Virus record (IMG/VR): IMGVR_UViG_2974644367_000001
Location: 1-10,236 of that record
DNA: 10,236 bases
Source: a virus
Taxonomy: Duplodnaviria; Heunggongvirae; Uroviricota; Caudoviricetes
Reading direction: 5' to 3' (one strand)
The position numbers were made by a program, and so were the translations under genes. Below are positions 1-10,236 of this stretch, in pieces (the first letter of the stretch is position 1; every line of letters starts with the position of its first letter). A model generated the notes under the pieces. The model did no database searches, was not told the origin of the DNA, and saw nothing but the letters and a program-made list of their open reading frames with translations.

Positions 1-20
1 TTAGCCACTTTTACATTTCG

Positions 21-828
21 TTAACAACTTTTTAACATCTCTGCAACATTCTATTCAGTCATCTGCATAACATCTTGACAACATTCTATTAACATTCCTG
101 TTACAACTCTTTAACGATTCTTTAACACGGTCATGTTAAGAGTCTGTTACAACCCTGTTAAAATTTCTCGATACAAATTAACATTTCGATAACATGGTGA
201 TTCAACTGTAAAGCCATTTGTCAAGTCTAATAAATTCTCTTCAAACCCTTGACAATCCTGATTAGTTGAGTTGTTAAGACCCTGTTAAAATCCTGTTAAG
301 ATTGTTAAAGAGAATGGGTAAATGTTAACGGATTAGATGAATTGTTAAGAGCTTTGGAGAGTTGTTAAGAGACTGTTAAGAGAATGTTGCAGATATGTTA
401 AGATTTTGCAAAGGAACGGTTAACTTCTGAGAAGCGGCCACTAAGTAGATATACAATTAATGTCAAAAATTGCATAAATCTTCAAAGTGACTATCCAATT
501 AACAGTAAAGAACAGTGGTTAAGATACCCTGTCAGATATGATGTGAACCCTTGCAGTGTCTGGTTTAGAGAAGAGGTACTGTTAATTTTTAAAAAATAGA
601 AAATTATCTGAAAAGTTACTGTCTGTTAAGATGAGATGTTAAGACGTAGGTTAAGATTGATTTTAAGGCACTTCTCAGCCCTTCTCAGAGGACTTCTCAG
701 ACAAGATGAGCAAACATACAGCTTACCAAGATAACGCCTTAGAGAGGCTTGTATGAGGCTTATGACGAATCCCTATGAGGATATGTTAAGAGGTGTGTTA
801 AGACTGGATGTTAAGAAGTGGGTTAAGA
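21..828. repeat. Non-coding array of TGTTAAGA/GGTTAAGA motifs (TTAACA orientation in the first ~185 nt)
   Basis: Exact TGTTAAGA at 134, 272, 294, 343, 363, 374, 396, 624, 637, 784, 796, 809; GGTTAAGA at 517, 649, 821; reverse-orientation TTAACA at 21, 32, 89, 122, 178. No ORF of 60 aa or more in 1-876. Confidence 0.85.
671..700 (+). repeat. Triple CTTCTCAG short direct repeat
   Basis: CTTCTCAG at 671, 681, 693; reverse complement CTGAGAAG at 427-434. Confidence 0.7.
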
Positions 829-843
829 ATTTTTTAGAAAAAT

Positions 844-865
844 AAAAAGCCTCTGAAAAGAGGCT
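844..865 (-). terminator. Rho-independent terminator closing the minus-strand operon
   Basis: AGCCTCT-GAAA-AGAGGCT stem (848-865) preceded by an A run (U tract on minus), 12 nt past the stop of CDS 877-1071. Confidence 0.8.
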
Positions 866-876
866 GTATAGAGGAA

Positions 877-1071
877 TCACAGTTTGGTGACAGGTCTGCC
901 GTTAATCAACATGTTCAGATGGAATGTTCTCACAATCTCTTCAGGAAACTGTAAAGCAACTTTCTTCCTTATCCGTTCTAATGTATCTGCGTTGTACGGT
1001 AATCCTTTGAACTCTTGCAAGCATTCTGTCAATTCAGCATACTGCTCAGGTGTAGCGTTCTTGTACATCAT
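877..1071 (-). CDS. Hypothetical protein, 64 aa (MMYKNATPEQ...)
   Basis: ATG at 1071 overlaps the TGA of the upstream gene (ATGA coupling); GGAGG at 1073-1077. The track's TTG start at 1080 lies upstream of, and overlaps, this SD. Confidence 0.7.
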   Translation of the reverse strand: MMYKNATPEQYAELTECLQEFKGLPYNADTLERIRKKVALQFPEEIVRTFHLNMLINGRPVTKL

Positions 1072-1301
1072 TCCTCCCAATATGACCAGTTCTCTTCAGC
1101 GGTATCTTTAGGGTCATACAGACGCCATTCACGACGATACATGTTGAAGGACATTGCACTGTAGCTATCAGTGACCGCTTCCATCTCACCTTTAGCGAGT
1201 TTCTTAGCAGTTTTGGAGTCACAGCCAGCACCTATCAAGAGATTCTTAAAGGTACGTCTAAACTGCTTCTTCCATTGGTTGTTCGTGTAACGATGTTTCA
1301 T
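1068..1301 (-). CDS. Hypothetical protein, 77 aa, basic N-terminus and Trp/acidic C-terminus
   Basis: GGAGA SD 9 nt upstream; ATGA overlaps at both ends. Confidence 0.75.
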   Translation of the reverse strand: MKHRYTNNQWKKQFRRTFKNLLIGAGCDSKTAKKLAKGEMEAVTDSYSAMSFNMYRREWRLYDPKDTAEENWSYWEE

Positions 1302-1462
1302 GAGAAAATCTCTCCAATCAGTTTTCCAAGACCATCAAGCAGATAACACAGTAAGAATGTGATTCCACTTGCCAGATACGGGTTCATCCACTCGAAGTGA
1401 TACACTACAACAAACACTAAGAGTGTTGCAAGTACATTTTCAAGAAATCTTCCGAGAATCAT
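1298..1462 (-). CDS. Small two-transmembrane membrane protein, 54 aa (not in ORF track)
   Basis: Hand translation MILGRFLENVLATLLVFVVVYHFEWMNPYLASGITFLLCYLLDGLGKLIGEIFS*; AAGGAA upstream; its TGA overlaps the ATG of the next gene. Confidence 0.7.
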   Translation of the reverse strand: MILGRFLENVLATLLVFVVVYHFEWMNPYLASGITFLLCYLLDGLGKLIGEIFS

Positions 1463-1492
1463 TCCTCTATTTCCTTGTATGTGATTCAGGTG

Positions 1493-1741
1493 TTACAGCT
1501 TTTTGAAAGTGACTGTACCGTTCTTTTCAGCAGCTTCTTTAGCAGCGTTGAAACGGTCAATCATATCAGATTTGCCAGAGGCGATGGCCTGATAATCCGG
1601 CTTTTCCGCACCGCAGTATTCGCACTGCACTACGTGCTTCGGTTCACCACCCTCAATGCCAGTGATAAACTCAGACGGGATTGTCATCTCTTTAAAGGAA
1701 CAACCAGCACCTGATGCAGAACACTCTGTGAAGTTATTCAT
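1493..1741 (-). CDS. Hypothetical Cys-containing protein, 82 aa (possible zinc ribbon)
   Basis: GGAGA SD 5 nt before ATG at 1741 (track start at 1753 overlaps the SD); CSASGAGC and CEYC motifs. Confidence 0.75.
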   Translation of the reverse strand: MNNFTECSASGAGCSFKEMTIPSEFITGIEGGEPKHVVQCEYCGAEKPDYQAIASGKSDMIDRFNAAKEAAEKNGTVTFKKL

Positions 1742-1761
1742 GTTACTCTCCAATAAATGTG

Positions 1762-1784
1762 AAAAAAGGACTCCGAAGAGTCCC
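1762..1784 (-). terminator. Rho-independent terminator downstream of endolysin
   Basis: On minus: GGACTC-TTCG-GAGTCC followed by T6; C(UUCG)G tetraloop. Confidence 0.85.
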
Positions 1785-1791
1785 TATTATA

Positions 1792-2265
1792 TCAAACGCC
1801 ATAGTTGCTGTGCAAGTAGATTTCAACTTCTTTTGCACGTCTGTTTACCAGACCCTTGCTCACGACTTTCTTACCCTTGACAGTGATTTTATTCCACAGT
1901 GCAAATGATGCAGCAGCGGCTTCAAAGTTCCCTGCAAGATGATTTCTCAGTACGCTTGAAGAAGCAAAGTTAGTCAATCCCACGTTATACGCGAAGATTA
2001 CAAGAGCGTCAAACTGATTCTGTGTTGTGCCTTTAACGGCCTTGACCAGATACTTTTCAACACCTGATTTGAAGTCATGCAAATCCAGAGCAAGTTCGGC
2101 TTTAGCAGCTTCGAGAGTTGTTGTATCACCCATCTTAACTTTTCTTGCACGAACACTGGTATCACCGAATCCAATAGTCGGTACACCTGCAACATCCAGA
2201 TATGCTTTTGCACTGAACCCTTCCATTACTTCAAGGGCTTGCTGACCTTTTTGAGAAACTTCCAT
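1792..2265 (-). CDS. Endolysin, GH24 phage lysozyme (muramidase), 157 aa
   Basis: Catalytic triad E15-X8-D24-X5-T30 (EGFSAKAYLDVAGVPTIGFG), plus QNQFDALVIFAYNVG and GLVNRRAKE motifs; GAGGT SD; no N-terminal SAR/TM segment. Confidence 0.95.
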   Translation of the reverse strand: MEVSQKGQQALEVMEGFSAKAYLDVAGVPTIGFGDTSVRARKVKMGDTTTLEAAKAELALDLHDFKSGVEKYLVKAVKGTTQNQFDALVIFAYNVGLTNFASSSVLRNHLAGNFEAAAASFALWNKITVKGKKVVSKGLVNRRAKEVEIYLHSNYGV

Positions 2266-2287
2266 TCATGATTACCTCACTAAATAT

Positions 2288-2309
2288 AAAAAGGACTCCG
2301 AAGAGTCCC
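2288..2309 (-). terminator. Rho-independent terminator between the Ig-like gene and endolysin
   Basis: Same GGACTC-TTCG-GAGTCC hairpin plus T5; 25 bp identical to the copy at 1763-1787. Confidence 0.85.
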
Positions 2310-2315
2310 TATGAG

Positions 2316-2936
2316 TTATGCTGCTGCAACTGTCACAGTCGCTGTATCGGTCTTCGCACCATCTTCGGTTGTTACCGTAATAGTCGCTGTACCTTCAGCT
2401 TTTGCAGTCACCAGACCGTTAGCATCAACGGTTGCTACAGACTCGTCAGAAGACTTGTAAGTAACTTTGCTGTTTGTTGCATTGTCAGGAGAGACCGTTG
2501 CAGTCAACTGACGAGTACCACCTACAGCAAGATTGTTAGTTTTCGGTGCAATTGCTACACCAGTGACGCTAACAGTCGTCGCTTTGATAACAGCATTAAG
2601 CTGTGAGAAGAACGGTTTGACTTTATCAGTCGGGTTGAGGATTTCTTCAATCTCGTAACCGTTCAGGGACAGATACTGAATATCGTGCAGGAAGTCAACC
2701 AGACGAACAACACGCGAAGCACTGTACATATTGGTTGCAGAGAACGGTACAGCACCTTTCGGTGTATATGTTCCGGTCATCTCTGTAGCGACATCCATCA
2801 GACGGTTCCAGCTACCTGAGTAGAAATAGCGTGGGAAGTAATAACTCTGAACTTTGCTGAAGTCAGTAATTTTACCGTCTGCTTTCGCTTTAGCGATAAC
2901 CGCTGCCACGAACTCGTTAAAGGTTTCTCTAGCCAT
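2316..2936 (-). CDS. Probable virion protein with C-terminal bacterial Ig-like (Big_2) domain, 206 aa
   Basis: C-terminal VTGVAIAP...QLTATVSPDNATNSKVTYKSSDESVATVDANGLVTAKAEGTATITVTT is a typical Big_2 pattern; AAGGA SD. Confidence 0.85.
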   Translation of the reverse strand: MARETFNEFVAAVIAKAKADGKITDFSKVQSYYFPRYFYSGSWNRLMDVATEMTGTYTPKGAVPFSATNMYSASRVVRLVDFLHDIQYLSLNGYEIEEILNPTDKVKPFFSQLNAVIKATTVSVTGVAIAPKTNNLAVGGTRQLTATVSPDNATNSKVTYKSSDESVATVDANGLVTAKAEGTATITVTTEDGAKTDTATVTVAAA

Positions 2937-2939
2937 TTC

Positions 2940-3560
2940 TTATCCTTCGTTCACAATGGTTTGGAGTTGGTTTTGCATTGCTGCAAGGTTACGGCGCTTG
3001 TCAAGAGTGATGCCATACTTTTCAACATACTCTACAAGCTCTTCCTTAGACTCTTTAGACATTGCAATGCTCATATCAAAAGGTTCAGAAGATTTCACAG
3101 TGTCTTCATCGTTCGTCTTAAACAGAGGTTCGATGTCGTCCTGTACTGGTTCATTCACTGTCTCAGGAATCTGTTCAGAGACTTCAGCAGACAGACCGTT
3201 CACCGTAGCACTGTAAGCACCGAGAGTCATAGTTGCAGACTTCACAGTTGCACCAGTTGGTTGCTTAATCAGAGCATTGCTCAGTGTTCTTAAAAGAGAC
3301 TCAGCATTCGGTGAATGAATGATTGAATCACCATCTTTAAGGTCAGTCCGATGAACAATTACATCAGGAGAAACCTCTTCAATGTCCTGTTTAACAGTGA
3401 CTTTAAAGTTTGGATTGAAAGGTGTCTTTGCAACGAAAGTGTTAGGGACATATTTAAAGCCCTGACCAATCTGATTGTACATTTCACCAATCAACTCAAG
3501 TGCAGTAGTACCCGAAAGGGTAACTGACTCATCAGGATTGAATGTTCTTTGAACAGTCAT
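2940..3560 (-). CDS. Hypothetical protein, 206 aa; acidic linker and C-terminal HeH/Rho-N-like helical module
   Basis: Long ORF, ATGA-coupled to the upstream gene; C-terminal SKEELVEYVEKYGITLDKRRNLAAMQNQL resembles helix-extended-helix modules (inference). Confidence 0.8.
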   Translation of the reverse strand: MTVQRTFNPDESVTLSGTTALELIGEMYNQIGQGFKYVPNTFVAKTPFNPNFKVTVKQDIEEVSPDVIVHRTDLKDGDSIIHSPNAESLLRTLSNALIKQPTGATVKSATMTLGAYSATVNGLSAEVSEQIPETVNEPVQDDIEPLFKTNDEDTVKSSEPFDMSIAMSKESKEELVEYVEKYGITLDKRRNLAAMQNQLQTIVNEG

Positions 3561-3775
3561 TTCAAATTCCTTCTATTCAGTAGGTAAAGAATTTTCATCA
3601 AGATTCGATTCTCATAGTCAGAGATAAAAATCTCTTCAGAGTTTCTTGACCGATTATTCAGGTCAGTCATAACACCTGCGTATTCAGAGTGCATTCCACC
3701 AAAGGCCAAACGATAGAGAAGATAATCTTCGTAGACCTCTTGGATTTCTGAACTGTTTAATAGAATACTGGACAT
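3557..3775 (-). CDS. Hypothetical protein, 72 aa (MSSILLNS...)
   Basis: AGGT SD 7 nt before ATG at 3775; TGA overlaps the next ATG. Confidence 0.7.
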   Translation of the reverse strand: MSSILLNSSEIQEVYEDYLLYRLAFGGMHSEYAGVMTDLNNRSRNSEEIFISDYENRILMKILYLLNRRNLK

Positions 3776-3784
3776 TACGACCAC

Positions 3785-3937
3785 CTACATAATCTTACCA
3801 TAACCTTGAAAGAAACGGTATAATGCTAATTCGTCGTCAGAGTAGTGCTCTGAAAGATGACTCTTGGCCTTTTGGGGAGACTTCTGATTATCTTTCGCTT
3901 TCTTTCTGACGGGTTTGTTTAAAATTGGTTGAGTCAT
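3785..3937 (-). CDS. Small basic hypothetical protein, 50 aa (not in ORF track)
   Basis: MTQPILNKPVRKKAKDNQKSPQKAKSHLSEHYSDDELALYRFFQGYGKIM*; AGGA SD 7 nt upstream; stop overlaps the SD of the next gene. Confidence 0.65.
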   Translation of the reverse strand: MTQPILNKPVRKKAKDNQKSPQKAKSHLSEHYSDDELALYRFFQGYGKIM

Positions 3938-4290
3938 TAGTAAATCCTAATAATGCCTCGCCCTACAGCTATGGAGTATATTCTCATAATATGGGTCTAA
4001 AGTCAAGCAATTTGTTGCATAAAATCGAAGAAAAAGTCATGAAAATCATCATTTTAACCCGATTTTTACTCATTTATGACGAAAAACCTCAAATATATGG
4101 TGATTCTCCACTTTACAGGTCTCTTTTTGTATGCTACACTCCGTTCTGTCATCTGAACAGGTTCTTTTTAAAGATTTCTTCTTATATTCTATCTGTTATC
4201 TATCTATCTCTAATTATCTCTTAAAAGTCTTTAAAGATAACTGTAAAGACGCACTCACGCCCACAAGCACACGCGAGGGCAAGAAACACC

Positions 4291-4318
4291 TTGACAAAAT
4301 GTCTATTAAGGTTAAAAT
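4291..4318 (+). promoter_or_regulatory. Sigma70-type promoter upstream of terS
   Basis: TTGACA (4291-4296), 16-nt spacer, TAAAAT (4313-4318). Confidence 0.6.
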
Positions 4319-4354
4319 TATTACTTGACATAATGTTTGATTGAGGATTTAATA

Positions 4355-4720
4355 ATGGCTAGAAAACATGCTGGTCAGTTCCGCAAGGGGCAATCTGGCA
4401 ATCCTGCTGGAAGACCGCGAGGAAGCAGAAATAAATCTTCTCTTGTCAAGGCTCAATTACTGCTTGACGACTCAAGTGAGATGTCTGTAAAATTGTTCCG
4501 CGCTCTTGTTACAAGAGATGCAGCACAACTTGCAGAGTTCGGACTTTCACCCTCTGACGTAAATGTCAAAGCGATGATGGAAGCAGCGAAAATCATTCTC
4601 ACTCAGTCTTCTTCAGAGATGAAAGCACTTGCATCTGACAAGAAAAAAGAAGATGATGTACCGGAACAGAAAGAGGAAGCTCCAACGTTCCAGAATGTTG
4701 CAAGAATTGGTTCAAAATAG
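4355..4720 (+). CDS. terS: Probable terminase small subunit (DUF5681-type N-terminus), 121 aa
   Basis: GAGGA SD 7 nt before ATG 4355; N-terminal QFRKGQSGNPAGRPRGSRNK motif typical of DUF5681/TerS; terL lies downstream on the same strand. Confidence 0.7.
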   Translation: MARKHAGQFRKGQSGNPAGRPRGSRNKSSLVKAQLLLDDSSEMSVKLFRALVTRDAAQLAEFGLSPSDVNVKAMMEAAKIILTQSSSEMKALASDKKKEDDVPEQKEEAPTFQNVARIGSK

Positions 4721-4723
4721 TTG

Positions 4724-4752
4724 TTGACAGATACGAAGTTGAATGTTACCTT
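4724..4752 (+). promoter_or_regulatory. Sigma70-type promoter opening the RNA island
   Basis: TTGACA-17-TACCTT with TGn extended -10. Confidence 0.55.
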
Positions 4753-4796
4753 GGTATCTGTTCTGAGAGAGCTTCAGAGGTTTCACAGAAATCTGT

Positions 4797-4869
4797 GCGG
4801 GTGTGGTGTAAAAGGGGAACATACATGGTTTTGCCCATGTGGATGAGGGTTCGACTCCCTTCACCTGCT
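4797..4869 (+). ncRNA. Atypical tRNA-like element (6-nt anticodon loop, G3.U70, no encoded CCA)
   Basis: Cloverleaf: GCGGGTG/CACCTGC acceptor, GTGT/ACAT D stem, CATGG-TTTTGC-CCATG, GAGGG-TTCGACT-CCCTT T arm. Confidence 0.7.
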
Positions 4870-4959
4870 GCTCTGAAGGTAGCCTGATGATGAATCGGGA
4901 GTAAATAACACGAGGCGACAGAACGCGCCTACTCTTAGAAAAATAAATTGAAAATCTTG

Positions 4960-4988
4960 TTGACAGGCTCCAATAAGTGCGATAAGAT
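4960..4988 (+). promoter_or_regulatory. Sigma70-type promoter for the tRNA cluster
   Basis: TTGACA-17-TAAGAT with A-rich UP-like tract upstream, just ahead of tRNA-Pro. Confidence 0.75.
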
Positions 4989-5011
4989 AGCTTCATAGTT
5001 TTAGAAAACAT

Positions 5012-5089
5012 CTCCGTTTAGCTCAGTATGGATAGAGTAGGCCGTTTGGGGCGGTCGGGTCGAAGGTTCAAATCCTTCAACGGAGACCA
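5012..5089 (+). tRNA. tRNA-Pro(TGG)
   Basis: CTCCGTT/AACGGAG acceptor, loop TT-TGG-GG, TTCAAAT T loop, ACCA. Confidence 0.95.
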
Positions 5090-5096
5090 AATTAAT

Positions 5097-5171
5097 GTCG
5101 TAGAAGGCAAACGGTTAGCCACCTGACCTTCAATCAGTTGCTCGCGGGTTCGAATCCCGTCTACGACTCCA
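5097..5171 (+). tRNA. tRNA-Glu(TTC)
   Basis: GTCGTAG/CTACGAC, loop CC-TTC-AA (C33), TCCA end. Confidence 0.9.
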
Positions 5172-5209
5172 AAATAAAGTTTGACAGGTACTTTGAATTC
5201 TGTCAGTAT

Positions 5210-5286
5210 GGGTCAGTAGCTTAATTGGGAAAGCATCTCACTTGCAATGAGAAGGATGAGGGTTCAAGTCCCTCCTGTATCCACCA
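5210..5286 (+). tRNA. tRNA-Ala(TGC), bulged acceptor stem
   Basis: GGGTCAG pairs with CTG(T)ATCC with one bulged T; G3.U70 and A73; loop CT-TGC-AA; ACCA. Confidence 0.85.
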
Positions 5287-5462
5287 AAACTTTAATGGTC
5301 TGGTCAAATTCTCCCTTAGAATCTTGACTGATAAACTCTCTGTAAGGATTCGCGGTTGCTTGCAGAGCTTTGGGATAGCATCTTCTAAGTCACGTGCTGA
5401 AGAATGCGAAATTGGAATGACCTTGCCGAAACGGTTAGTTTGTCCAGAGCCATTAAAGTTTT
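5286..5462 (+). ncRNA. Structured non-coding RNA of unknown family (~175 nt)
   Basis: Perfect 13-bp closing stem AAAACTTTAATGG/CCATTAAAGTTTT extended by TCTGG/CCAGA; internal hairpins CTCTGTAAG/CTTGCAGAG and GCATCTTC/GAAGAATGC. Confidence 0.65.
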
Positions 5463-5464
5463 AT

Positions 5465-5539
5465 AGCGGGATGGAGCAGTGGTAGCTTGCCAGTTTCATT
5501 ATCTGGAGGTCGTAGGTTCGAATCCTACTCCCGCTTCCA
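5465..5539 (+). tRNA. tRNA-Met(CAT), fMet-like body without initiator determinants
   Basis: AGCGGGA/TCCCGCT, D region TGGAGCAGTGGTAGCT resembles tRNA-fMet; loop TT-CAT-TA; TCCA. Confidence 0.9.
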
Positions 5540-5547
5540 AATTTAAA

Positions 5548-5623
5548 GGGTTTGAAGCACATATGGATGTGCGGCTGGCTGTTAACCAGATGGTAGTGGG
5601 TTCGAGTCCCACCTTTCCCGCCA
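5548..5623 (+). tRNA. tRNA-Asn(GTT), three U.U mismatches in acceptor
   Basis: GGGTTTG/CTTTCCC; loop CT-GTT-AA; GCCA. Confidence 0.85.
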
Positions 5624-5629
5624 ATTTAT

Positions 5630-5712
5630 GCGTCTATGGCAGAGATGGTCAATGCAGCGGTCTGTAAAACCGCCCCGAAAGGTTACTGGTTCGAGTCCAG
5701 TTAGGCGCACCA
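5630..5712 (+). tRNA. tRNA-Tyr(GTA)
   Basis: GCGTCTA/TAGGCGC, loop CT-GTA-AA, variable arm, ACCA. Confidence 0.95.
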
Positions 5713-5718
5713 AACAAT

Positions 5719-5792
5719 TGCGAAGTAGTGAAATGGCATCATACTGGTTTCATTATCCGGTGTAGGTAGTTCGAATCTACCCTTCGCATCCA
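5719..5792 (+). tRNA. tRNA-Met/Ile2(CAT), second copy
   Basis: TGCGAAG/CTTCGCA, loop TT-CAT-TA, TCCA. Confidence 0.85.
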
Positions 5793-5871
5793 AATTACTC
5801 AGTTTGGGTTGTTCTGAGTGACGTGTAGGGTATTACCCTTTAGAGCGTCGAATCAAAGACTCCTTAAAGTT

Positions 5872-5948
5872 GGGGATGTGGCAGACTTGGTAATTGTACC
5901 GCACTGTCTATGCGGAATATGAGGGTTCAAATCCCTTCATCCTCGCCA
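5872..5948 (+). tRNA. tRNA-Asp(GTC)
   Basis: GGGGATG/CATCCTC, CCGCA-CTGTCTA-TGCGG, GCCA. Confidence 0.93.
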
Positions 5949-5951
5949 ATT

Positions 5952-6170
5952 TCACCGGAAAGACTACCGTCCAACTGGTAACTGCCGTCTGGTATATGCG
6001 GTGATTCTACTTTGTAGCGTTCCTCTTATGAGGTGAATGGATGTCTCCTTTCCAAAGCACATTTAGATGAAATATACAGGTCTACAGCTTTTACTTAAAC
6101 GTTTCACCTCCTTGCGTTTAAGGTTTGGGCTACATAACTGAGTAGTCTCGCTCAGGGCGACAGAGAGACA
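5952..6170 (+). ncRNA. Putative structured RNA with anti-Shine-Dalgarno loop
   Basis: TCACCG/CGGTGA, TGTAGC/GCTACA, and CTTAAACG-TTTCACCTCCTTG-CGTTTAAG hairpin; no ORF. Confidence 0.5.
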
Positions 6171-6174
6171 AAAT

Positions 6175-6265
6175 GGAAGGGCAAATCGACTGGCGACGAA
6201 AACGGTCTTGAAAACCGCCGAGCGTTAATAGCGCCTTGAGGGTTCGACTCCCTCTCCTTCCGCCA
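6175..6265 (+). tRNA. tRNA-Ser(TGA)
   Basis: GGAAGGG/TCCTTCC, loop CT-TGA-AA, long variable arm, GCCA. Confidence 0.93.
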
Positions 6266-6266
6266 C

Positions 6267-6341
6267 GGTCTAATTAGCTTATATGGTAAAGCAACGGTCT
6301 GAAAAGCCGTGGAACAGGGTTCGAATCCCGATAGACCGCCA
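6267..6341 (+). tRNA. tRNA-Phe(GAA), irregular acceptor and T stems
   Basis: ACGGT-CTGAAAA-GCCGT anticodon arm; GGTCTA/TAGACC; the T stem pairs only with a bulge; GCCA. Confidence 0.75.
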
Positions 6342-6348
6342 AATTCAA

Positions 6349-6424
6349 CGGTGTGTAACTCAATTGGCAGAGTGGGTGGCTTTTAACCACAGGGTTGCAG
6401 GTTCGATGCCTGTCACACCGACCA
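6349..6424 (+). tRNA. tRNA-Lys(TTT)
   Basis: CGGTGTG/CACACCG, loop CT-TTT-AA, ACCA. Confidence 0.93.
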
Positions 6425-6432
6425 AACAAAAT

Positions 6433-6509
6433 GGACTATTAACTCAACTGGTCAGAGTACCCGACTCTTAATCGGGAGGTTCAGGGTTCGACTCCCTGAT
6501 AGTCTACCA
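6433..6509 (+). tRNA. tRNA-Lys(CTT)
   Basis: GGACTAT/ATAGTCT, CCCGA-CTCTTAA-TCGGG, ACCA. Confidence 0.95.
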
Positions 6510-6520
6510 AATTTCTTAGT

Positions 6521-6593
6521 AGTGGTATGGCAGAGATGGTCATGCACTTCCTTCATACGGAAGCCTACATCGGTTCAAGTCCGATTACCACTT
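6521..6593 (+). tRNA. tRNA-Met/Ile2(CAT), third copy, no encoded CCA
   Basis: AGTGGTA/TACCACT, CTTCC-TTCATAC-GGAAG; followed by T-CTA instead of N-CCA. Confidence 0.85.
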
Positions 6594-6607
6594 CTAAGAG
6601 ATTTAAT

Positions 6608-6682
6608 TGTGGGTTAGCATAAATGGTAATGCAAACGCCTGATAAGCGTTAGAAGAGGGTTCGATACCCTCACCTACGACCA
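6608..6682 (+). tRNA. tRNA-Ile(GAT)
   Basis: TGTGGGT/ACCTACG, AACGC-CTGATAA-GCGTT, ACCA. Confidence 0.93.
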
Positions 6683-6688
6683 AACAAT

Positions 6689-6764
6689 CGGGGTATGGAG
6701 TAATTGGCAACTCTACGGTTTTTGAGGCCGTCAGTTTTCGGTTCGAATCCGAATGCCCCCGCCA
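6689..6764 (+). tRNA. tRNA-Gln(TTG)
   Basis: CGGGGTA/TGCCCCC (1:72 mismatch), ACGGT-TTTTGAG-GCCGT, GCCA. Confidence 0.92.
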
Positions 6765-6770
6765 AACGAT

Positions 6771-6847
6771 GCACCCTTAGAACAAACGGATAGTTCCACT
6801 GTCTTCTAAACAGTTAGTTACAGGTTCGAATCCTGTAGGGTGTGCCA
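6771..6847 (+). tRNA. tRNA-Arg(TCT)
   Basis: GCACCCT/AGGGTGT, ACTGT-CTTCTAA-ACAGT, GCCA. Confidence 0.95.
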
Positions 6848-6853
6848 AAAAAT

Positions 6854-7020
6854 GGGTGATTCTGCAACGGTGGAGCTAGGCCAGCTTTGAAGCCGTAAAA
6901 TGGGAATGCAGTATCTACTGACGATAGTTCTTGAAAGTAGTTTGTGAAGCCGGACTAACAGATTATGAGTAATGGGCGACAATAGGTCGTGGAGAGGTTC
7001 GAATCCTTAATCACTCGCCA
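6854..7020 (+). ncRNA. 167-nt tRNA-mimic RNA: acceptor stem, T arm and CCA around a ~130-nt multi-hairpin insert
   Basis: GGGTGATT (6854-6861) pairs with AATCACTC (7009-7016), then G-CCA; GAGG-TTCGAAT-CCTT T arm; no D arm or anticodon arm recognisable. Confidence 0.75.
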
Positions 7021-7028
7021 AATTTAGG

Positions 7029-7057
7029 TTGACAGGTGAAACAATCTCCTGTAATCT
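7029..7057 (+). promoter_or_regulatory. Sigma70-type promoter ahead of the tmRNA-like element
   Basis: TTGACA-17-TAATCT. Confidence 0.65.
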
Positions 7058-7063
7058 TTACCG

Positions 7064-7264
7064 TAGTTTTCGTTGGGTATGCTTCTATTTTTATCATTTA
7101 AAATAAATGCAAATGATGCTCAATTTCTGGCAGTGGCGTAATAGCTAAACACCAGTAGGGTCTTCCGACTCCCTATCACCGAATTCGGCGTAGAGTTGTC
7201 CCGTCTATGATTGCCAAACGGGGCTTCAACCTAAAAGGTTCTTACGAGAGTCTTTCAGATTGAA
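7064..7264 (+). ncRNA. tmRNA-like mRNA domain (tag ANDAQFLAVA**) without an attached tRNA-like domain
   Basis: AATAAAT-GCA resume context; 10-codon tag 7109-7138; TAA TAG in a hairpin loop; two H-type pseudoknot pairings downstream; no T arm/CCA end. Confidence 0.75.
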
Positions 7265-7265
7265 T

Positions 7266-7342
7266 GGCGTAATATCCCAATTGGCAGAGGAAGCAGGTTC
7301 AAACCCTGTTCAGTGTGGGTTCGACTCCCACTTACGCTACCA
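7266..7342 (+). tRNA. tRNA-Leu(CAA), short variable loop
   Basis: GGCGTAA/TTACGCT, GCAGG-TTCAAAC-CCTGT, ACCA. Confidence 0.9.
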
Positions 7343-7472
7343 GATTCAGATGTCTTTATAATCGTCCCTGAAATGACGGGGCAATTAAGGAGGTGGTCTG
7401 TATCTCCTGACTGTCAGGATAACCAGTAGAGCGTTAATAACACTGAGAAGTGTGATGAGTCGCTTGATAAAT

Positions 7473-7548
7473 GCAAGTATGATGTCAATAGGTAACATGG
7501 CGTCCTTCCAAGTCGCTCTTGCGGGTTCGAGTCCCGCTACTTGCTCCA
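7473..7548 (+). tRNA. tRNA-Gly(TCC)
   Basis: GCAAGTA/TACTTGC, loop CT-TCC-AA, U73, CCA. Confidence 0.93.
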
Positions 7549-7554
7549 AATTAT

Positions 7555-7630
7555 AGGGGGTTAGTTTAACTGGCAAAATATCGGCTTCCAAACCCGTAAG
7601 TTGAAGGTTCGAATCCTTCACCCCTTGCCA
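7555..7630 (+). tRNA. tRNA-Trp(CCA)
   Basis: AGGGGGT/ACCCCTT, G73, loop TT-CCA-AA; only 3 pairs in the anticodon stem. Confidence 0.8.
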
Positions 7631-7639
7631 ATTCAGAAT

Positions 7640-7714
7640 GCCTCCATCATATAAGGGCTATTATGCCTGTTTTGTAATCAGGTCATCGCGGTTCGAATCC
7701 GTGTGGGGGCACCA
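7640..7714 (+). tRNA. tRNA-Thr(TGT)
   Basis: GCCTCCA/TGGGGGC, loop TT-TGT-AA, ACCA. Confidence 0.92.
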
Positions 7715-7720
7715 AATAAT

Positions 7721-7796
7721 ACTCGTATAGCTCAGATGGTAGAGCGGCATCTTTACACGTTGCTGGTCAGGCGTTCGAGTCGCCTTGCGAGTACCA
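7721..7796 (+). tRNA. tRNA-Val(TAC)
   Basis: ACTCGTA/TGCGAGT, loop TT-TAC-AC, ACCA. Confidence 0.93.
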
Positions 7797-7802
7797 AACA
7801 AT

Positions 7803-7880
7803 GGCTGTGTAGCCCAACTTGGCAGAGGCACTACGCTAAGAACGTATTCAGTGTGGGTTCGAATCCCTCCACAGCTACCA
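7803..7880 (+). tRNA. tRNA-Leu(AAG), A34, short variable loop
   Basis: GGCTGTG/CACAGCT; TACG-CTAAGAA-CGTA puts AAG at 34-36; A73; CCA. Confidence 0.8.
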
Positions 7881-7886
7881 AACAAT

Positions 7887-7963
7887 AGACCTTTATCTTA
7901 AATGGACAGAGACTCAAGCTACGAACTTGAGAGGTTCGGGTTCGAATCCCGAAAGGTCTTCCA
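7887..7963 (+). tRNA. tRNA-Arg(ACG)
   Basis: AGACCTT/AAGGTCT, TCAAG-CTACGAA-CTTGA, TCCA. Confidence 0.95.
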
Positions 7964-7965
7964 AT

Positions 7966-8042
7966 AGGATGTTCGTATAGTTGGCCTATTACACCGGACT
8001 CTGAATCCGGTTACGATGGTTCGAGTCCATCACGTCCTGCCA
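7966..8042 (+). tRNA. tRNA-Gln(CTG)
   Basis: AGGATGT/ACGTCCT, CCGGA-CTCTGAA-TCCGG, GCCA. Confidence 0.93.
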
Positions 8043-8048
8043 AACAAT

Positions 8049-8125
8049 AGGTGATTACCCCAATTGGCAGAGGGTAGGAGCTTAAACCTCCGATGTTGAG
8101 AGTTCGAATCTCTCATCACCTACCA
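8049..8125 (+). tRNA. tRNA-Leu(TAA), short variable loop
   Basis: AGGTGAT/ATCACCT, loop CT-TAA-AC, ACCA. Confidence 0.9.
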
Positions 8126-8127
8126 AT

Positions 8128-8205
8128 GGAGTTGGTATCATAAATGGATAATGACCCTGACTGTGAATCAGGTCTATGCGGGTTCGAATCCCGTCCTTCT
8201 CCCCA
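8128..8205 (+). tRNA. tRNA-His(GTG)
   Basis: G-1:C73 pair, GAGTTGG/CCTTCTC (two U.U), CCTGA-CTGTGAA-TCAGG, CCA. Confidence 0.92.
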
Positions 8206-8211
8206 AATTCT

Positions 8212-8304
8212 GGAAGATTAACCCTAAATGGTAAGGGAAGTGTTTGCTAAACACTCAGTAACCGAGAAATCGGCGTACCAGTTCAAGTCTGGTATCTTCC
8301 TCCA
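8212..8304 (+). tRNA. tRNA-Ser(GCT)
   Basis: GGAAGAT/ATCTTCC, AGTGT-TTGCTAA-ACACT, long variable arm, TCCA. Confidence 0.93.
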
Positions 8305-8320
8305 ATTCGTAAGGTGTATA

Positions 8321-9055
8321 ATGGCTGTCACAGACCAAACTAAGCAAATCTTCAGTTTAATGCAGTCTGGTAAGGCTTTTAAAAATCCTCTGGCGAGTGC
8401 ATCATCAAGTCTGTCTTCAAGTATTAGTTCCGGTACATCTGGAATGAACACACTGAAGAGCAACCTGACAAATCCAACCGCTCAGACGGCTTTACAGAAT
8501 GCTGGCATTAACACGACATTACTGACAAGTGGTGCAGGGGCTTTAACCTCTTCAGCTTCGACTGTTACAAGTCTCGTCAGTTATGGTCAGACCTCAGTTA
8601 ACGAGTTCTCTCAGAGAATGCAGTTGGCAGAGGGTTACAAGAGTTCTTACGAATCTCTTACAGGCACTTCCGCAGGTTGTTCACCTTTCAACTCCGTAAT
8701 GGGTGTTGCACAAGGAATCGGACAGTCAGCAATGAATGCTTACAACACGGTGATGACCGGAGTTAACTCAGCTATCAGTGCATTGAATGATGCTATCGCA
8801 AAAGGTCTTGCAACTATTCAGGACTTAGCAGCAGCAGCATACGCAAAGATTAATGAGCTTATCACAAAGGCCAAAGAGTTTGCACAGAAGGTTGTTGATA
8901 TGATTGCTGAAGAAGCAAGCCTAATCAGTGATTACCTGAAGACTCAAGCCAGTGCGTTTATGGCGAAGTATATGCCAGATTGGTTCAAGGACTCTTGTAA
9001 GAGTGCTGTGACAAATAACGTGGCAACCGATGAATTGAAAGCAGCAGCGAAATAA
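8321..9055 (+). CDS. Hypothetical Ser/Ala/Thr-rich helical protein, 244 aa
   Basis: AAGGTG SD before ATG 8321 (MAVTDQTKQIF...); the track's start at 8228 lies inside tRNA-Ser(GCT). Confidence 0.88.
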   Translation: MAVTDQTKQIFSLMQSGKAFKNPLASASSSLSSSISSGTSGMNTLKSNLTNPTAQTALQNAGINTTLLTSGAGALTSSASTVTSLVSYGQTSVNEFSQRMQLAEGYKSSYESLTGTSAGCSPFNSVMGVAQGIGQSAMNAYNTVMTGVNSAISALNDAIAKGLATIQDLAAAAYAKINELITKAKEFAQKVVDMIAEEASLISDYLKTQASAFMAKYMPDWFKDSCKSAVTNNVATDELKAAAK

Positions 9056-9056
9056 T

Positions 9057-9133
9057 GGCGCGATGACTGAAACACAAATGGTGTCCGTCTGCAAAACGGA
9101 AAAATGAGGGTGGGATTCCCTCTCGCGTCTCCA
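9057..9133 (+). tRNA. tRNA-Cys(GCA), non-canonical T loop
   Basis: GGCGCGA/TCGCGTC, U73, TCCGT-CTGCAAA-ACGGA; T loop TGGGATT. Confidence 0.8.
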
Positions 9134-9264
9134 ATAAGTCCTCTTGAGAGTCAGGGTATCGCTACCTCTTGGCTCTTGGGAGGCAGCTTTCGAGTCATAC
9201 TTAAAGTGTCTTTCCGAAGAGTTTTTGAGTATGTTTCGGCATACAGGCAGTTGCGGTTTCCTTT

Positions 9265-9287
9265 GTGGCGCTAGTCGCCACCTTTTT
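9265..9287 (+). terminator. Possible terminator
   Basis: GTGGCG-CTAGT-CGCCAC followed by C and T5. Confidence 0.5.
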
Positions 9288-9328
9288 CCAAACTGTCAGT
9301 AGTGTGTACATTTTCAACTCATTTCTTC

Positions 9329-9352
9329 GGAGGCTTTTTAGCCTCCTTTTTT
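9329..9352 (+). terminator. Rho-independent terminator ending the tRNA island transcript
   Basis: GGAGGCT-TTTT-AGCCTCC followed by T6. Confidence 0.85.
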
Positions 9353-9369
9353 CGTTTATGGAGCAAAGA

Positions 9370-9552
9370 ATGAACGAACAACAGATTAAAGAACTGCAAC
9401 TTAAAGCCGAACTGTATGACCTCTCAAAATCCAATCAGGAGATGAGTGCGGTTATCAGAAACGTAATTATCAGCCTTGCAACCTCACTGAAGGTTGACCC
9501 GAATGAGTATAACCTGCAAGAGCTATTGGATAAGGTCTCAGAAGCTGTGTAA
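9370..9552 (+). CDS. Small coiled-coil protein, 60 aa; possible gp57A-like tail-fibre chaperone
   Basis: GGAG SD 6 nt before ATG 9370 (MNEQQIKELQLKAELYDL...); the track's start at 9265 lies upstream of the terminator. Confidence 0.75.
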   Translation: MNEQQIKELQLKAELYDLSKSNQEMSAVIRNVIISLATSLKVDPNEYNLQELLDKVSEAV

Positions 9553-9584
9553 GCCTCTGTGAGCTATTTTATGGAGTAACCCTA

Positions 9585-10236
9585 ATGAACCTTACCGAAG
9601 TTAAACAGCAGCGTCTGAGGGACGTACAGGCCGTTTTAGCGGGTACTATCAAACTTGAGCCAGCAGTTGTAAAACTTCTCGCCAAGTATGGAAAGCCAGT
9701 TGAAAAACTGCTTCCAAGTCAAATCTTGACATTGAGAAAGTATACGCTTGAAGAGGTTGAACTTCTCATGAGGCTGTTGACAAATAAGAAGTTTATTGCC
9801 CCACAGCCCGGCTCTCAAGAGGCATTGCTGAACACCACAACTGACATCACACTCTATGGTGGTGCGGCTGGTTCCGGTAAGACGGTTGCTATCCTGATGG
9901 ATGCCCTTCAGCATAAAGATGACCCTGATTACTACGCTGTATTCTTCCGTAAAAACACCACACAGTTATCAGGTGGTCTTTGGCCTGCCGCTAAAAAATT
10001 GTATGGCATGTTCGGGGGAGTTCCACATGAACAGAAGATGGTGATTCAATTCCCTTCTGGCGCATCAATCAAGTTCTCTTACATGGAACTGGAAAAACAC
10101 GCAGAAGCCCATCAGGGTATCGAATACTCAGCAATTTATTGGGATGAGTTTACTCACTTCTCACAGAGTCAGGTTGATTACCTGATGACTCGTATGCGTT
10201 CTGGTGCAGATGGTGACTCGTACATGAAATGTTCGA
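9585..10236 (+). CDS. terL: Terminase large subunit, 5' part (runs off the window; absent from ORF track)
   Basis: Hand translation open to the window end: MNLTEVKQQRL...PQPGSQ (adenine binding)...LYGGAAGSGKT (Walker A)...SAIYWDE (Walker B); GGAG SD 8 nt upstream. Confidence 0.96.
   Translation, partial: MNLTEVKQQRLRDVQAVLAGTIKLEPAVVKLLAKYGKPVEKLLPSQILTLRKYTLEEVELLMRLLTNKKFIAPQPGSQEALLNTTTDITLYGGAAGSGKTVAILMDALQHKDDPDYYAVFFRKNTTQLSGGLWPAAKKLYGMFGGVPHEQKMVIQFPSGASIKFSYMELEKHAEAHQGIEYSAIYWDEFTHFSQSQVDYLMTRMRSGADGDSYMKCS

What the first reader, a model, noticed from the sequence alone, without database searches (positions are those of the whole stretch)
5286..5462. Unannotated ~175-nt multibranch RNA between tRNA-Ala and tRNA-Met
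Seen: the whole spacer is closed by a perfect 13-bp helix (5286-5298/5450-5462) that continues through a bulge (TCTGG/CCAGA, CAAA/TTTG). It encloses hairpins CTCTGTAAG/CTTGCAGAG (5338-5367), GCATCTTC/GAAGAATGC (5378-5407) and CCG-AAA-CGG. Processing of the flanking tRNAs would release it as a discrete RNA. It has no T loop or CCA and no credible ORF. I do not recognise the family.
Basis: seen in the sequence. Interest (0 to 1): 0.7.

Follow-up and report, generated by a model that had tools for sequence, protein, structure and literature searches.

The report
End-paired spacer in phage tRNA array
The 178 bases between two tRNA genes of this Erwinia/Salmonella phage do close into a long, non-random RNA duplex, but their interior folds no better than random sequence, so this is most likely a processing stalk of the tRNA precursor and not yet a demonstrated new functional RNA.

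Summary
The window is the tRNA array of a phiEa21-4-like phage (Kolesnikvirus, Ounavirinae). The 13-bp perfect helix (5286-5298/5450-5462) and its extensions are real. It starts on the last A of the CCA of tRNA-Ala and ends 2 nt before tRNA-Met, giving about 24 bp. The whole spacer folds at z = -3.9 on the + strand, but the interior without the closing helix folds at z = -0.25, so the "multibranch" part is not beyond chance. There is no Rfam match, no supported ORF, no second copy in the genome and no copy outside the genus. All 28 copies found are at least 98.9% identical, so covariation cannot be tested. One variant turns A-U into G.U, which pairs only on the + strand. The helix core GGUCUGG/CCAGA(G)CC is that of the stem-closed hairpins of Felix O1-type arrays, with the strands swapped. 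A model of that family does not match here, and this genus also lacks their Ro60-like gene.

Best reading (0.45): an end-paired transcribed spacer acting as an RNase III-type processing stalk. This scan noted the same element earlier on other Kolesnikvirus genomes and reached the same conclusion.

The parts
5210..5286 (+). tRNA-Ala(UGC) including the encoded CCA (5284-5286). The acceptor stem is GGGUCAG/CUG(U)AUCC with bulged U5278, G3.U70 and discriminator A5283.
   Evidence: ARAGORN and Rfam place it at 5210-5282 with two acceptor mismatches. Re-read with a bulged U, it gives 7 pairs plus A73 and CCA. The in-context MFE fold draws the same bulge. The same bulge occurs in related phage tRNA-Ala genes.
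5286..5310 (+). 5' strand of closing helix P1: AAAACUUUAAUGG / UCUGG / U / CAAAUU. It contains the GGUCUGG box (5297-5303).
5437..5462 (+). 3' strand of closing helix P1: AGUUUG / U / CCAGA / G (bulge 5449) / CCAUUAAAGUUUU. It ends 2 nt before tRNA-Met.
5311..5436 (+). Interior of the spacer. Predicted hairpins are 5338-5367, 5378-5407 (loop holds the palindrome CACGUG at 5391-5396) and 5425-5435. It is orphan sequence.
   Evidence: Fold z = -0.25. No similarity to Felix-type tRNA-Met, to E hairpins or to other gaps beyond shuffles. Natural variants are 5337 T>C (unpaired), 5380 A>G (A-U to G.U) and 5386 T>A (loop).
5465..5539 (+). tRNA-Met(CAU) directly downstream of the spacer.
5324..5485 (+). 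53-codon TTG-started ORF annotated as 'hypothetical protein' in some GenBank records. It overlaps tRNA-Met by 21 nt and is judged not a gene.
5172..5209 (+). Short Glu-Ala gap with hairpin UGACAG/CUGUCA (5182-5187/5200-5205). It keeps the TTTGACAG start of the Felix-type E1 5' arm and is invariant in 10 genomes.

Best explanation
The element is a transcribed spacer of the polycistronic tRNA precursor, and its functional part is the ~24-bp terminal duplex. The duplex is 13 perfect pairs, a G bulge, 5 pairs, a U.U mismatch and 6 pairs. It begins on A76 of tRNA-Ala and ends 2 nt before tRNA-Met, so it ties the 3' end of one tRNA to the 5' leader of the next. It hides the single-stranded trailer and leader that 3' exonucleases, RNase E and the RNase P protein normally use. 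The inferred pathway has three steps. A double-strand-specific endonuclease, most likely host RNase III, cuts the stalk first, as in rRNA operons and T7 early RNA. RNase P and exonucleases then finish tRNA-Met and tRNA-Ala. The ~130-150-nt interior is released as a by-product whose stability and use are unknown. In evolutionary terms the stalk is an 'inside-out' derivative of the GGUCUGG-box stems that close four small RNAs in sister genera. Shown: the helix, its position on the tRNA ends, its + strand bias, its single-copy and genus-restricted distribution, and the core shared with the sister-genus stems. Inferred: co-transcription, cleavage by RNase III, and the order of processing.
For: The perfect 13-bp repeat plus extensions sits exactly at the spacer ends. 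The fold excess is wholly in this helix: z = -3.85 for the whole spacer against -0.25 for the interior. P1 persists in the MFE and centroid folds when both tRNAs are included. The + strand folds better than the - strand. G.U pairs (U5309.G5438, U5343.G5362) and the natural A5380G change (A-U to G.U) pair only on the + strand. The duplex has the ~2-turn length of RNase III substrates (established knowledge). The RNase P protein contacts leader positions -8 to -3 (PMC11143913), and here these are paired from -3 onward. The only promoter-like site upstream is 4960-4988, and there is no terminator-like site before 9265 on the + strand. The element is as invariant as the neighbouring tRNA genes: 2 of 178 variable sites against a median of 21 per 178-nt window over 10 kb in 9-10 genomes. 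The core GGUCU/AGA(G)CC equals that of the E hairpins of Felix/Susp-type arrays. Their stems are 100% paired, with compensatory changes in 5 of 11 pairs and A>G giving G.U. The 11-mer TGGTCTGGTCA is shared with their Glu-Met spacer. The homologous bulged tRNA-Ala of KVP40-like Vibrio phages is also followed, 2 nt after CCA, by an end-to-end hairpin with compensatory changes.
Against: No experiment or read-level RNA data shows cleavage or even transcription. If only a stalk were needed, 130 nt of invariant interior would be unexplained. The low diversity is regional: the whole block 5172-5871 is low, and its other small gaps are equally invariant. It therefore does not prove selection on this element. 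No divergent homologue exists, so the helix itself has no compensatory support. The long spacers of the same array that were folded show no comparable long end-to-end stalk, so such a stalk is not a general requirement.
Confidence: 0.45

Rival explanations
1. It is a stand-alone stable non-coding RNA with a function in trans, such as a decoy or sponge for a host protein or RNA. It could be the 178-nt form or a 255-nt tRNA-Ala-spacer chimera. The closing helix serves mainly to protect its ends after excision by tRNA processing.
For: The interior is invariant in 28 copies from Erwinia, Salmonella, Hafnia and Cronobacter phages and from one metagenome. The + strand is favoured. Other gaps of the same array were read as structured RNAs in earlier scan notes. 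In an RNA-labelled library one 256-nt contig covers 5214-5469, bridging tRNA-Ala and the spacer. The tool warns that such libraries may hold DNA.
Against: The interior fold is no better than random. There is no covariation, no family match and no significant complementarity elsewhere in the phage genome. Conservation is regional and not specific to this element.
Confidence: 0.25
2. It is an evolutionary leftover without function of its own. It would be remnants of Felix-type stem arms rearranged around inserted orphan sequence and the tRNA-Ala gene. It would be kept because the block is young or swept by recombination and homing-endonuclease co-conversion.
For: The arms resemble E-family arms in swapped order. 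The genus has lost the E family and the Ro60-like gene. The whole block 5172-5871 has low diversity, and HNH endonuclease genes are inserted nearby in some genomes. The interior is orphan sequence with a random-like fold.
Against: A 13-bp perfect plus 11-bp extended helix placed exactly on two tRNA ends is unlikely to persist by drift. A duplex that locks a CCA end and an RNase P leader should be costly if it were not handled by the cell.
Confidence: 0.2
3. It is a DNA-level element: a miniature transposon, a recombination site or a nuclease target defined by terminal inverted repeats.
For: It has perfect 13-bp terminal inverted repeats. The array is mosaic and has homing-endonuclease insertions.
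Against: It is single-copy in the 84.7-kb genome. It is absent from 50,697 phage records outside the genus and from IMG/VR. In 185,579 prokaryote genomes only six isolated 19-20-mer matches occur against 4.3 expected by chance. No target-site duplication is visible in the sequence. The strand asymmetry of pairing favours RNA.
Confidence: 0.05
4. It encodes a small protein, the 53-aa TTG-start ORF 5324-5485 annotated in some records.
For: The frame is open through the spacer. Automated annotations call it a CDS. Two of three natural variants are synonymous in that frame (5380, 5386).
Against: By reading the sequence, it has a TTG start, no Shine-Dalgarno sequence upstream and a 21-nt overlap with tRNA-Met, and it lies in a tRNA transcript. 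It has no Pfam or PHROG family. tblastn finds no match outside Kolesnikvirus. An open frame of this length in AT-rich DNA is not unusual.
Confidence: 0.03

Closest known systems
Stem-closed GGUCUGG-box hairpins (E1-E4) in the tRNA arrays of Felixounavirus and Suspvirus. They are not in Rfam. Earlier notes of this scan read them as Y-RNA-like partners of the phage Ro60-like protein. Bas63 gp130 is Ro60-like and counters the Ppl defence (PMC11482910).
   Same: They lie in the same subfamily and in the same part of the array (between tRNA-Glu and tRNA-Met/Asn). They are closed by a helix with the same core, GGUCU paired to AGA(G)CC. The 11-mer TGGTCTGGTCA is shared. Their pairing is specific to the + strand RNA.
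   Different: The strand order is swapped: GGUCUGG is the 5' arm here and the 3' arm there. There is no CAGAAGACC box, no AGA/G internal loop and no invariant U-CAGCAA. This element has a much longer perfect helix and a 126-nt orphan interior. The family covariance model gives no hit at E up to 10. The Ro60-like gene is absent from this genome.
RNase III processing stems that flank mature stable RNAs (E. coli rRNA operon stalks, phage T7 early RNA sites; established knowledge, not tested here)
   Same: It is a long-range duplex of about two helical turns formed by sequences on either side of an excised segment within a precursor of stable RNAs. It has a bulge and an internal mismatch.
   Different: Here the stalk encloses spacer and the mature RNAs (tRNAs) lie outside it. 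In rRNA operons the mature RNA lies inside the stalk. Cleavage is unproven.
End-to-end hairpin after the homologous bulged tRNA-Ala of KVP40-like Vibrio phages (ValKK3, VH1_2019)
   Same: It follows a tRNA-Ala(UGC) that is 84% identical and has the same bulged U. It starts 2 nt after CCA and reaches to the next tRNA. Its stem is kept by compensatory changes.
   Different: It is about 67 nt long with a simple hairpin interior and no sequence similarity. The next gene is tRNA-Arg.
Phage T4 species 1 and species 2 stable RNAs (rnaC, rnaD) in the T4 tRNA cluster (my own knowledge; no paper could be read here)
   Same: They are non-tRNA RNAs encoded within a phage tRNA cluster and released by tRNA-type processing. 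Their function is unknown.
   Different: blastn of the phage collection found no similar sequence outside Kolesnikvirus. Accumulation of the RNA is shown for T4 but not here.
Functional tRNA-operon spacers of E. coli, such as the 3'ETS of leuZ acting as an sRNA sponge (my own knowledge)
   Same: It is spacer RNA excised from a tRNA precursor that could act in trans.
   Different: No target complementarity was found here, and the structure type is different.

Membership tests
GGUCUGG-box stem-closed hairpins (E family) of Felix O1-type tRNA arrays | 5' box CAGAAG(A/G)CC and 3' box GGTCTGG, in that order, closing the element | tested here: not met
   89 elements in 23 loci all have this order. 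In the window GGTCTGG (5297) is the 5' arm and CCAGAGCC (5444) is the 3' arm.
GGUCUGG-box stem-closed hairpins (E family) of Felix O1-type tRNA arrays | Invariant T-CAGCAA just inside the 5' stem | tested here: not met
   It is invariant in 45 distinct copies and absent from 5283-5464.
GGUCUGG-box stem-closed hairpins (E family) of Felix O1-type tRNA arrays | Score against a covariance model of the family | tested here: not met
   Model R1 finds all four copies in L003 at 48-72 bits, including E4, which was not in the training set. It finds nothing at 5283-5464 in the window, L024 or L026 at E up to 10 with filters off.
GGUCUGG-box stem-closed hairpins (E family) of Felix O1-type tRNA arrays | Ro60-like (DUF2828/DUF7788/VWA) gene upstream of the array | tested here: not met
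   There is no match in the complete 84,694-bp genome. Three Felix/Susp-type genomes match at 1e-43 to 1e-45 in the same search.
RNase III-type processing stalk | Near-continuous duplex of about 20 bp or more | tested here: met
   13 + 5 + 6 pairs with one bulge and one mismatch, stable in isolation and in context.
RNase III-type processing stalk | Lies within a precursor of stable RNAs and borders their mature ends | tested here: inconclusive
   The position on A76 of tRNA-Ala and 2 nt before tRNA-Met is shown. A single transcript is only inferred from the promoter and terminator scan.
RNase III-type processing stalk | Cleaved by RNase III in vivo or in vitro | not testable with these tools
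   Only assembled contigs were available.
Any Rfam 15 family (Y RNA/YrlA, 6S, tmRNA, tRNA, ribozymes and others) | Covariance-model score | tested here: not met
   No family reaches its gathering score. At E up to 10 the only matches touching the spacer are two far below their gathering scores: tmRNA_permuted at 9.7 bits and CLRN1-AS1 at 9.9 bits.
Miniature inverted-repeat transposable element | Several copies at unrelated sites, with target-site duplication | tested here: not met
   Single copy in the genome. Found only at this locus, in Kolesnikvirus. The prokaryote matches are at chance level.
Protein-coding gene | Homologues or a family match; a translation start signal | tested here: not met
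   no Shine-Dalgarno sequence before 5324.

The most novel reading that the evidence does not exclude
The stalk-closed RNA, alone or still fused to the unusual bulged tRNA-Ala as a 'CCA-locked' 255-nt species, is a stable, functional phage RNA. For example it could be a decoy for host nucleases or defence proteins that attack tRNA 3' ends or bind GGUCUGG-type stems. It might be the functional successor of the Y-like RNAs in a lineage that lost its Ro60-like protein.
Probability: 0.12. Interest if true: 0.7.

Novelty: new variant of a known kind. Interest (0 to 1): 0.35.

Why it matters
Phage tRNA arrays are usually annotated as tRNA genes plus meaningless spacers. This spacer ties the CCA end of one tRNA to the RNase P leader of the next with a two-turn duplex. 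If that holds, it would make maturation of two phage tRNAs depend on a double-strand RNase, which is a testable control point.

The comparison with sister genera also gives a natural experiment. Kolesnikvirus has lost both the Ro60-like gene and all four GGUCUGG-box hairpins, yet it keeps one rearranged copy of their stem. That co-loss is indirect support for the proposed partnership between the protein and those RNAs. As it stands, the element is a genus-private, unproven processing spacer. It is useful for annotation, because the 53-aa CDS in several GenBank records is probably spurious.

Tried and rejected
**Rfam.** Searches at gathering score and at E up to 10 found nothing in the spacer.

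**Search for homologues.**
- blastn of the spacer against 50,697 phage records found only 27 Kolesnikvirus copies, all at least 99.5% identical.
- An IMG/VR pattern scan and a protein-anchored scan found only the phiEa104 copy.
- A protein-anchored metagenome scan found one more Kolesnikvirus copy with 2 changes, plus 15 Felix-type arrays without the spacer.
- A 19-mer scan of 185,579 prokaryote genomes gave six isolated 19-20-mer matches against 4.3 expected by chance, with no extension.
- Covariation analysis of the element itself was therefore impossible.

**Membership in the E family.** The covariance model gave no hit.

**Origin of the interior.** Local alignments tested a decayed tRNA-Met, an E interior and another gap of the array. 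They score like shuffles.

**Complementarity.** The best antisense match elsewhere in the phage genome is one 13-mer at E 0.18.

**ORF.** No family and no homologue outside the genus.

**Promoter or terminator inside the spacer.** None found by the scan.

**Sequencing runs.**
- Only assembled contigs could be laid, so ends, strand and level of any RNA cannot be read.
- A tick metatranscriptome holds a 256-nt contig covering 5214-5469 at depth 2.6.
- Another RNA-labelled run has contigs covering 4700-5304 and 5372-5550, with a hole between them.
- Neither shows transcription, because DNA may be present in such libraries. I do not count them as evidence.

**Specific purifying selection.** I considered and dropped this claim. 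The spacer is the least variable feature, but the whole block 5172-5871 is equally quiet once the error-prone Ep030 record is removed.

Full report
**Where the window lies.** ARAGORN and Rfam find 27 tRNA genes on the + strand between 4797 and 9130. blastn identifies the region as the tRNA array of phiEa21-4/phiEa104-like phages (Kolesnikvirus, Ounavirinae). These phages were isolated on Erwinia, Salmonella, Hafnia and Cronobacter. The window is bases 1-10236 of a complete 84,694-bp virus record.

**The observation.**
- The finding is the 182-nt gap between tRNA-Ala and tRNA-Met.
- The 13-nt inverted repeat 5286-5298/5450-5462 is the only perfect repeat of 12 nt or more in 4500-9300.
- It extends through a bulged G5449 (UCUGG/CCAGA) and a U.U mismatch (CAAAUU/AGUUUG) to about 24 pairs.
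- ARAGORN ends tRNA-Ala at 5282 with two acceptor mismatches.
- Read with U5278 bulged, the stem is GGGUCAG/CUG(U)AUCC with G3.U70, discriminator A5283 and CCA at 5284-5286. The in-context fold draws the same bulge.
- The helix therefore starts on the terminal A of the CCA and ends 2 nt before tRNA-Met.

**Is it more than chance?**
- The whole spacer folds at -55.8 to -57.4 kcal/mol, z = -3.85 to -3.88, with 0 of 200 dinucleotide shuffles as good. The - strand gives z = -2.0 to -2.4.
- Without the closing helix, the interior 5311-5436 gives z = -0.25 on the + strand and +1.6 on the - strand.
- The 5312-5375 domain gives z = -1.8 and the 5378-5407 hairpin gives z = -0.95.
- The real signal is therefore the closing duplex. 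The 'multibranch' interior is not distinguishable from what random sequence of this composition forms.
- P1 survives in the MFE and centroid structures when both flanking tRNAs are folded with it.

**Distribution and variation.**
- The spacer occurs in 27 Kolesnikvirus records at 99.5-100% identity.
- It also occurs in one metagenomic Kolesnikvirus contig with two changes.
- It occurs nowhere else. It is absent from other phages and from IMG/VR beyond phiEa104.
- It is absent from 22 Felix/Susp-type arrays and has no second copy in its own genome.
- In prokaryote genomes, six bare 19-20-mer matches equal the chance expectation of 4.3.
- The natural variants are 5337 T>C (unpaired), 5386 T>A (hairpin loop) and 5285 C>A, the last in an 'UNVERIFIED' record.
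- The fourth variant is 5380 A>G, seen in four or more genomes. It turns A5380-U5405 into G.U, a change tolerated only in + strand RNA.
- Across 9-10 genomes the spacer has 2 variable sites in 178. The median for 178-nt windows over the 10 kb is 21, and coding parts show about 14% variable sites.
- The whole block 5172-5871 is equally quiet, including its two other small gaps. I therefore read this as 'as conserved as the tRNA genes beside it', not as proof of selection on this element.

**What it is not.**
- No Rfam family matches at gathering score or at E up to 10.
- An 86-codon frame is open through the spacer, and a 53-codon TTG version is annotated in several records.
- That frame lacks a ribosome-binding site and overlaps tRNA-Met. 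It has no Pfam or PHROG family and no translated match outside the genus.
- The element is single-copy and shows no target duplication, so it does not behave as a mobile DNA element.

**Relation to sister genera.**
- Felixounavirus and Suspvirus arrays carry four stem-closed hairpins each. I counted 89 in 23 loci.
- Their form is NNNC-AGA-AGACC-NN ... NN-GGUCU-G-GNNN.
- In 45 distinct copies, all 495 pair cells form standard pairs. Five of 11 pairs show compensatory changes, and A>G changes give G.U. They are real + strand RNA structures.
- Earlier notes of this scan read them as Y-RNA-like partners of the Ro60-like protein encoded just upstream. That protein is Bas63 gp130, a counter of the Ppl defence, and its authors guessed at Y RNAs among the tRNA genes (PMC11482910).
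- The window's P1 contains the same core, GGUCU paired with AGA(G)CC. It shares the 11-mer TGGTCTGGTCA with the 3' arm of their Glu-Met hairpin.
- The strands are swapped, however: GGUCUGG is the 5' arm here. The CAGAAGACC box, the AGA/G loop and the invariant U-CAGCAA are all missing.
- A covariance model of the family finds all four copies in a Felix-type locus and nothing in three Kolesnikvirus loci.
- The Ro60-like gene is also absent from the complete Kolesnikvirus genome, while the positive controls match at 1e-43 or better.
- The element is therefore not a member of that family. At most it is an inside-out relic of its stem.
- The interior shows no similarity to the Felix-type tRNA-Met, to E interiors or to the other gaps of the array.

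**A second parallel.**
- The nearest relatives of this tRNA-Ala are in KVP40-like Vibrio phages, at 84% identity.
- They have the same bulged U, with compensatory differences in the stem.
- They are also followed, 2 nt after CCA, by an end-to-end hairpin of about 67 nt that reaches the next tRNA. Its stem covaries between ValKK3 and VH1_2019.
- A Bacillus phage and crAss001 have the same bulged tRNA-Ala but no such hairpin.
- An earlier scan note describes 'CCA-locking' hairpins in an unrelated lake phage.
- End-paired spacers anchored on a CCA are thus a recurring design in phage tRNA arrays.

**Mechanism.**
- Most tRNAs in this array are 5-10 nt apart, so RNase P plus exonucleases can separate them.
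- Here A76 of tRNA-Ala and leader positions -3 and beyond of tRNA-Met are locked in a two-turn duplex.
- The RNase P protein contacts leader positions -8 to -3 (PMC11143913). 3' exonucleases and RNase E need single strands (established knowledge).
- The simplest reading is that a double-strand-specific nuclease, most likely RNase III, cuts the stalk first, after which normal tRNA maturation follows.
- This step is inferred. It is not shown.
- The invariant interior remains unexplained. It could make the released RNA functional (rival, 0.25) or be young orphan sequence (rival, 0.2).

**RNA data.** The only runs that could be laid are assembled contigs. One RNA-labelled library has a 256-nt contig spanning 5214-5469. 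This shows neither transcription nor RNA ends, and I do not count it as evidence.

**Verdict.** The helix is real and non-random. The multibranch fold and the status as a stable RNA are unproven. The same element was noted earlier in this scan on other Kolesnikvirus genomes, and a follow-up reached the same conclusion, which I reproduced independently. I rate it a new variant of a known kind (a processing stalk or structured transcribed spacer) and of moderate-to-low interest.

Noticed in passing
whole genome G000; window 4721-5011 lies where Felix-type phages carry the gene: Kolesnikvirus lacks both the Ro60-like gene (DUF2828/DUF7788/VWA) and all four GGUCUGG-box hairpins that every Felix/Susp-type array examined carries. 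This co-absence of the protein and its presumed RNA partners fits their proposed partnership.
   Followed up: partly
window 5210-5286; L042 456-534; L045 ~301-378; L043 303-378; L044 305-377: A phage tRNA-Ala(UGC) lineage has an extra bulged U in the 3' strand of the acceptor stem while keeping G3.U70. It occurs in Kolesnikvirus, KVP40-like Vibrio phages (with compensatory stem differences), Bacillus phage vB_BcoS-136 and crAss001. ARAGORN misses the Vibrio copy.
   Followed up: partly
L042 535-602 and L045 ~380-452: An end-to-end hairpin of about 67 nt lies between the bulged tRNA-Ala and tRNA-Arg of KVP40-like phages. Compensatory changes between ValKK3 and VH1_2019 keep the stem paired.
   Followed up: partly
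L003 2524-2545/2647-2668; L002 2581-2601/2704-2724: A 21-22-bp stem closes a ~145-nt element just upstream of tRNA-Lys in Felix- and Susp-type arrays. Compensatory differences between the two genera are visible by eye.
   Followed up: no
L003 2386-2527: The fourth GGUCUGG-box hairpin encloses a T arm followed by a D-arm-like segment, which looks like a circularly permuted tRNA. Rfam gives a partial tRNA hit at 26.8 bits.
   Followed up: no
window 5391-5396: The loop of hairpin 5378-5407 carries the 6-nt palindrome CACGUG, which could allow loop-loop dimerisation. This was not tested.
   Followed up: no
window 4683-5168 and 5872-5948 versus L001, L023, L024, L026: The array is mosaic. Alternative alleles of tRNA-Asp and of the Pro/Glu region occur, and HNH endonuclease genes are inserted in some genomes (Prophecy, ST-3). 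The block 5172-5871 stays nearly invariant throughout.
   Followed up: partly
window 5324-5485: Several GenBank records (SeKF_13, Omen, Harbringer, Coenus, Prophecy) show a 'hypothetical protein' feature under this spacer; in the three records inspected (SeKF_13, Omen, Prophecy) it is a 53-aa CDS here that overlaps tRNA-Met. It is probably a gene-caller artefact.
   Followed up: yes
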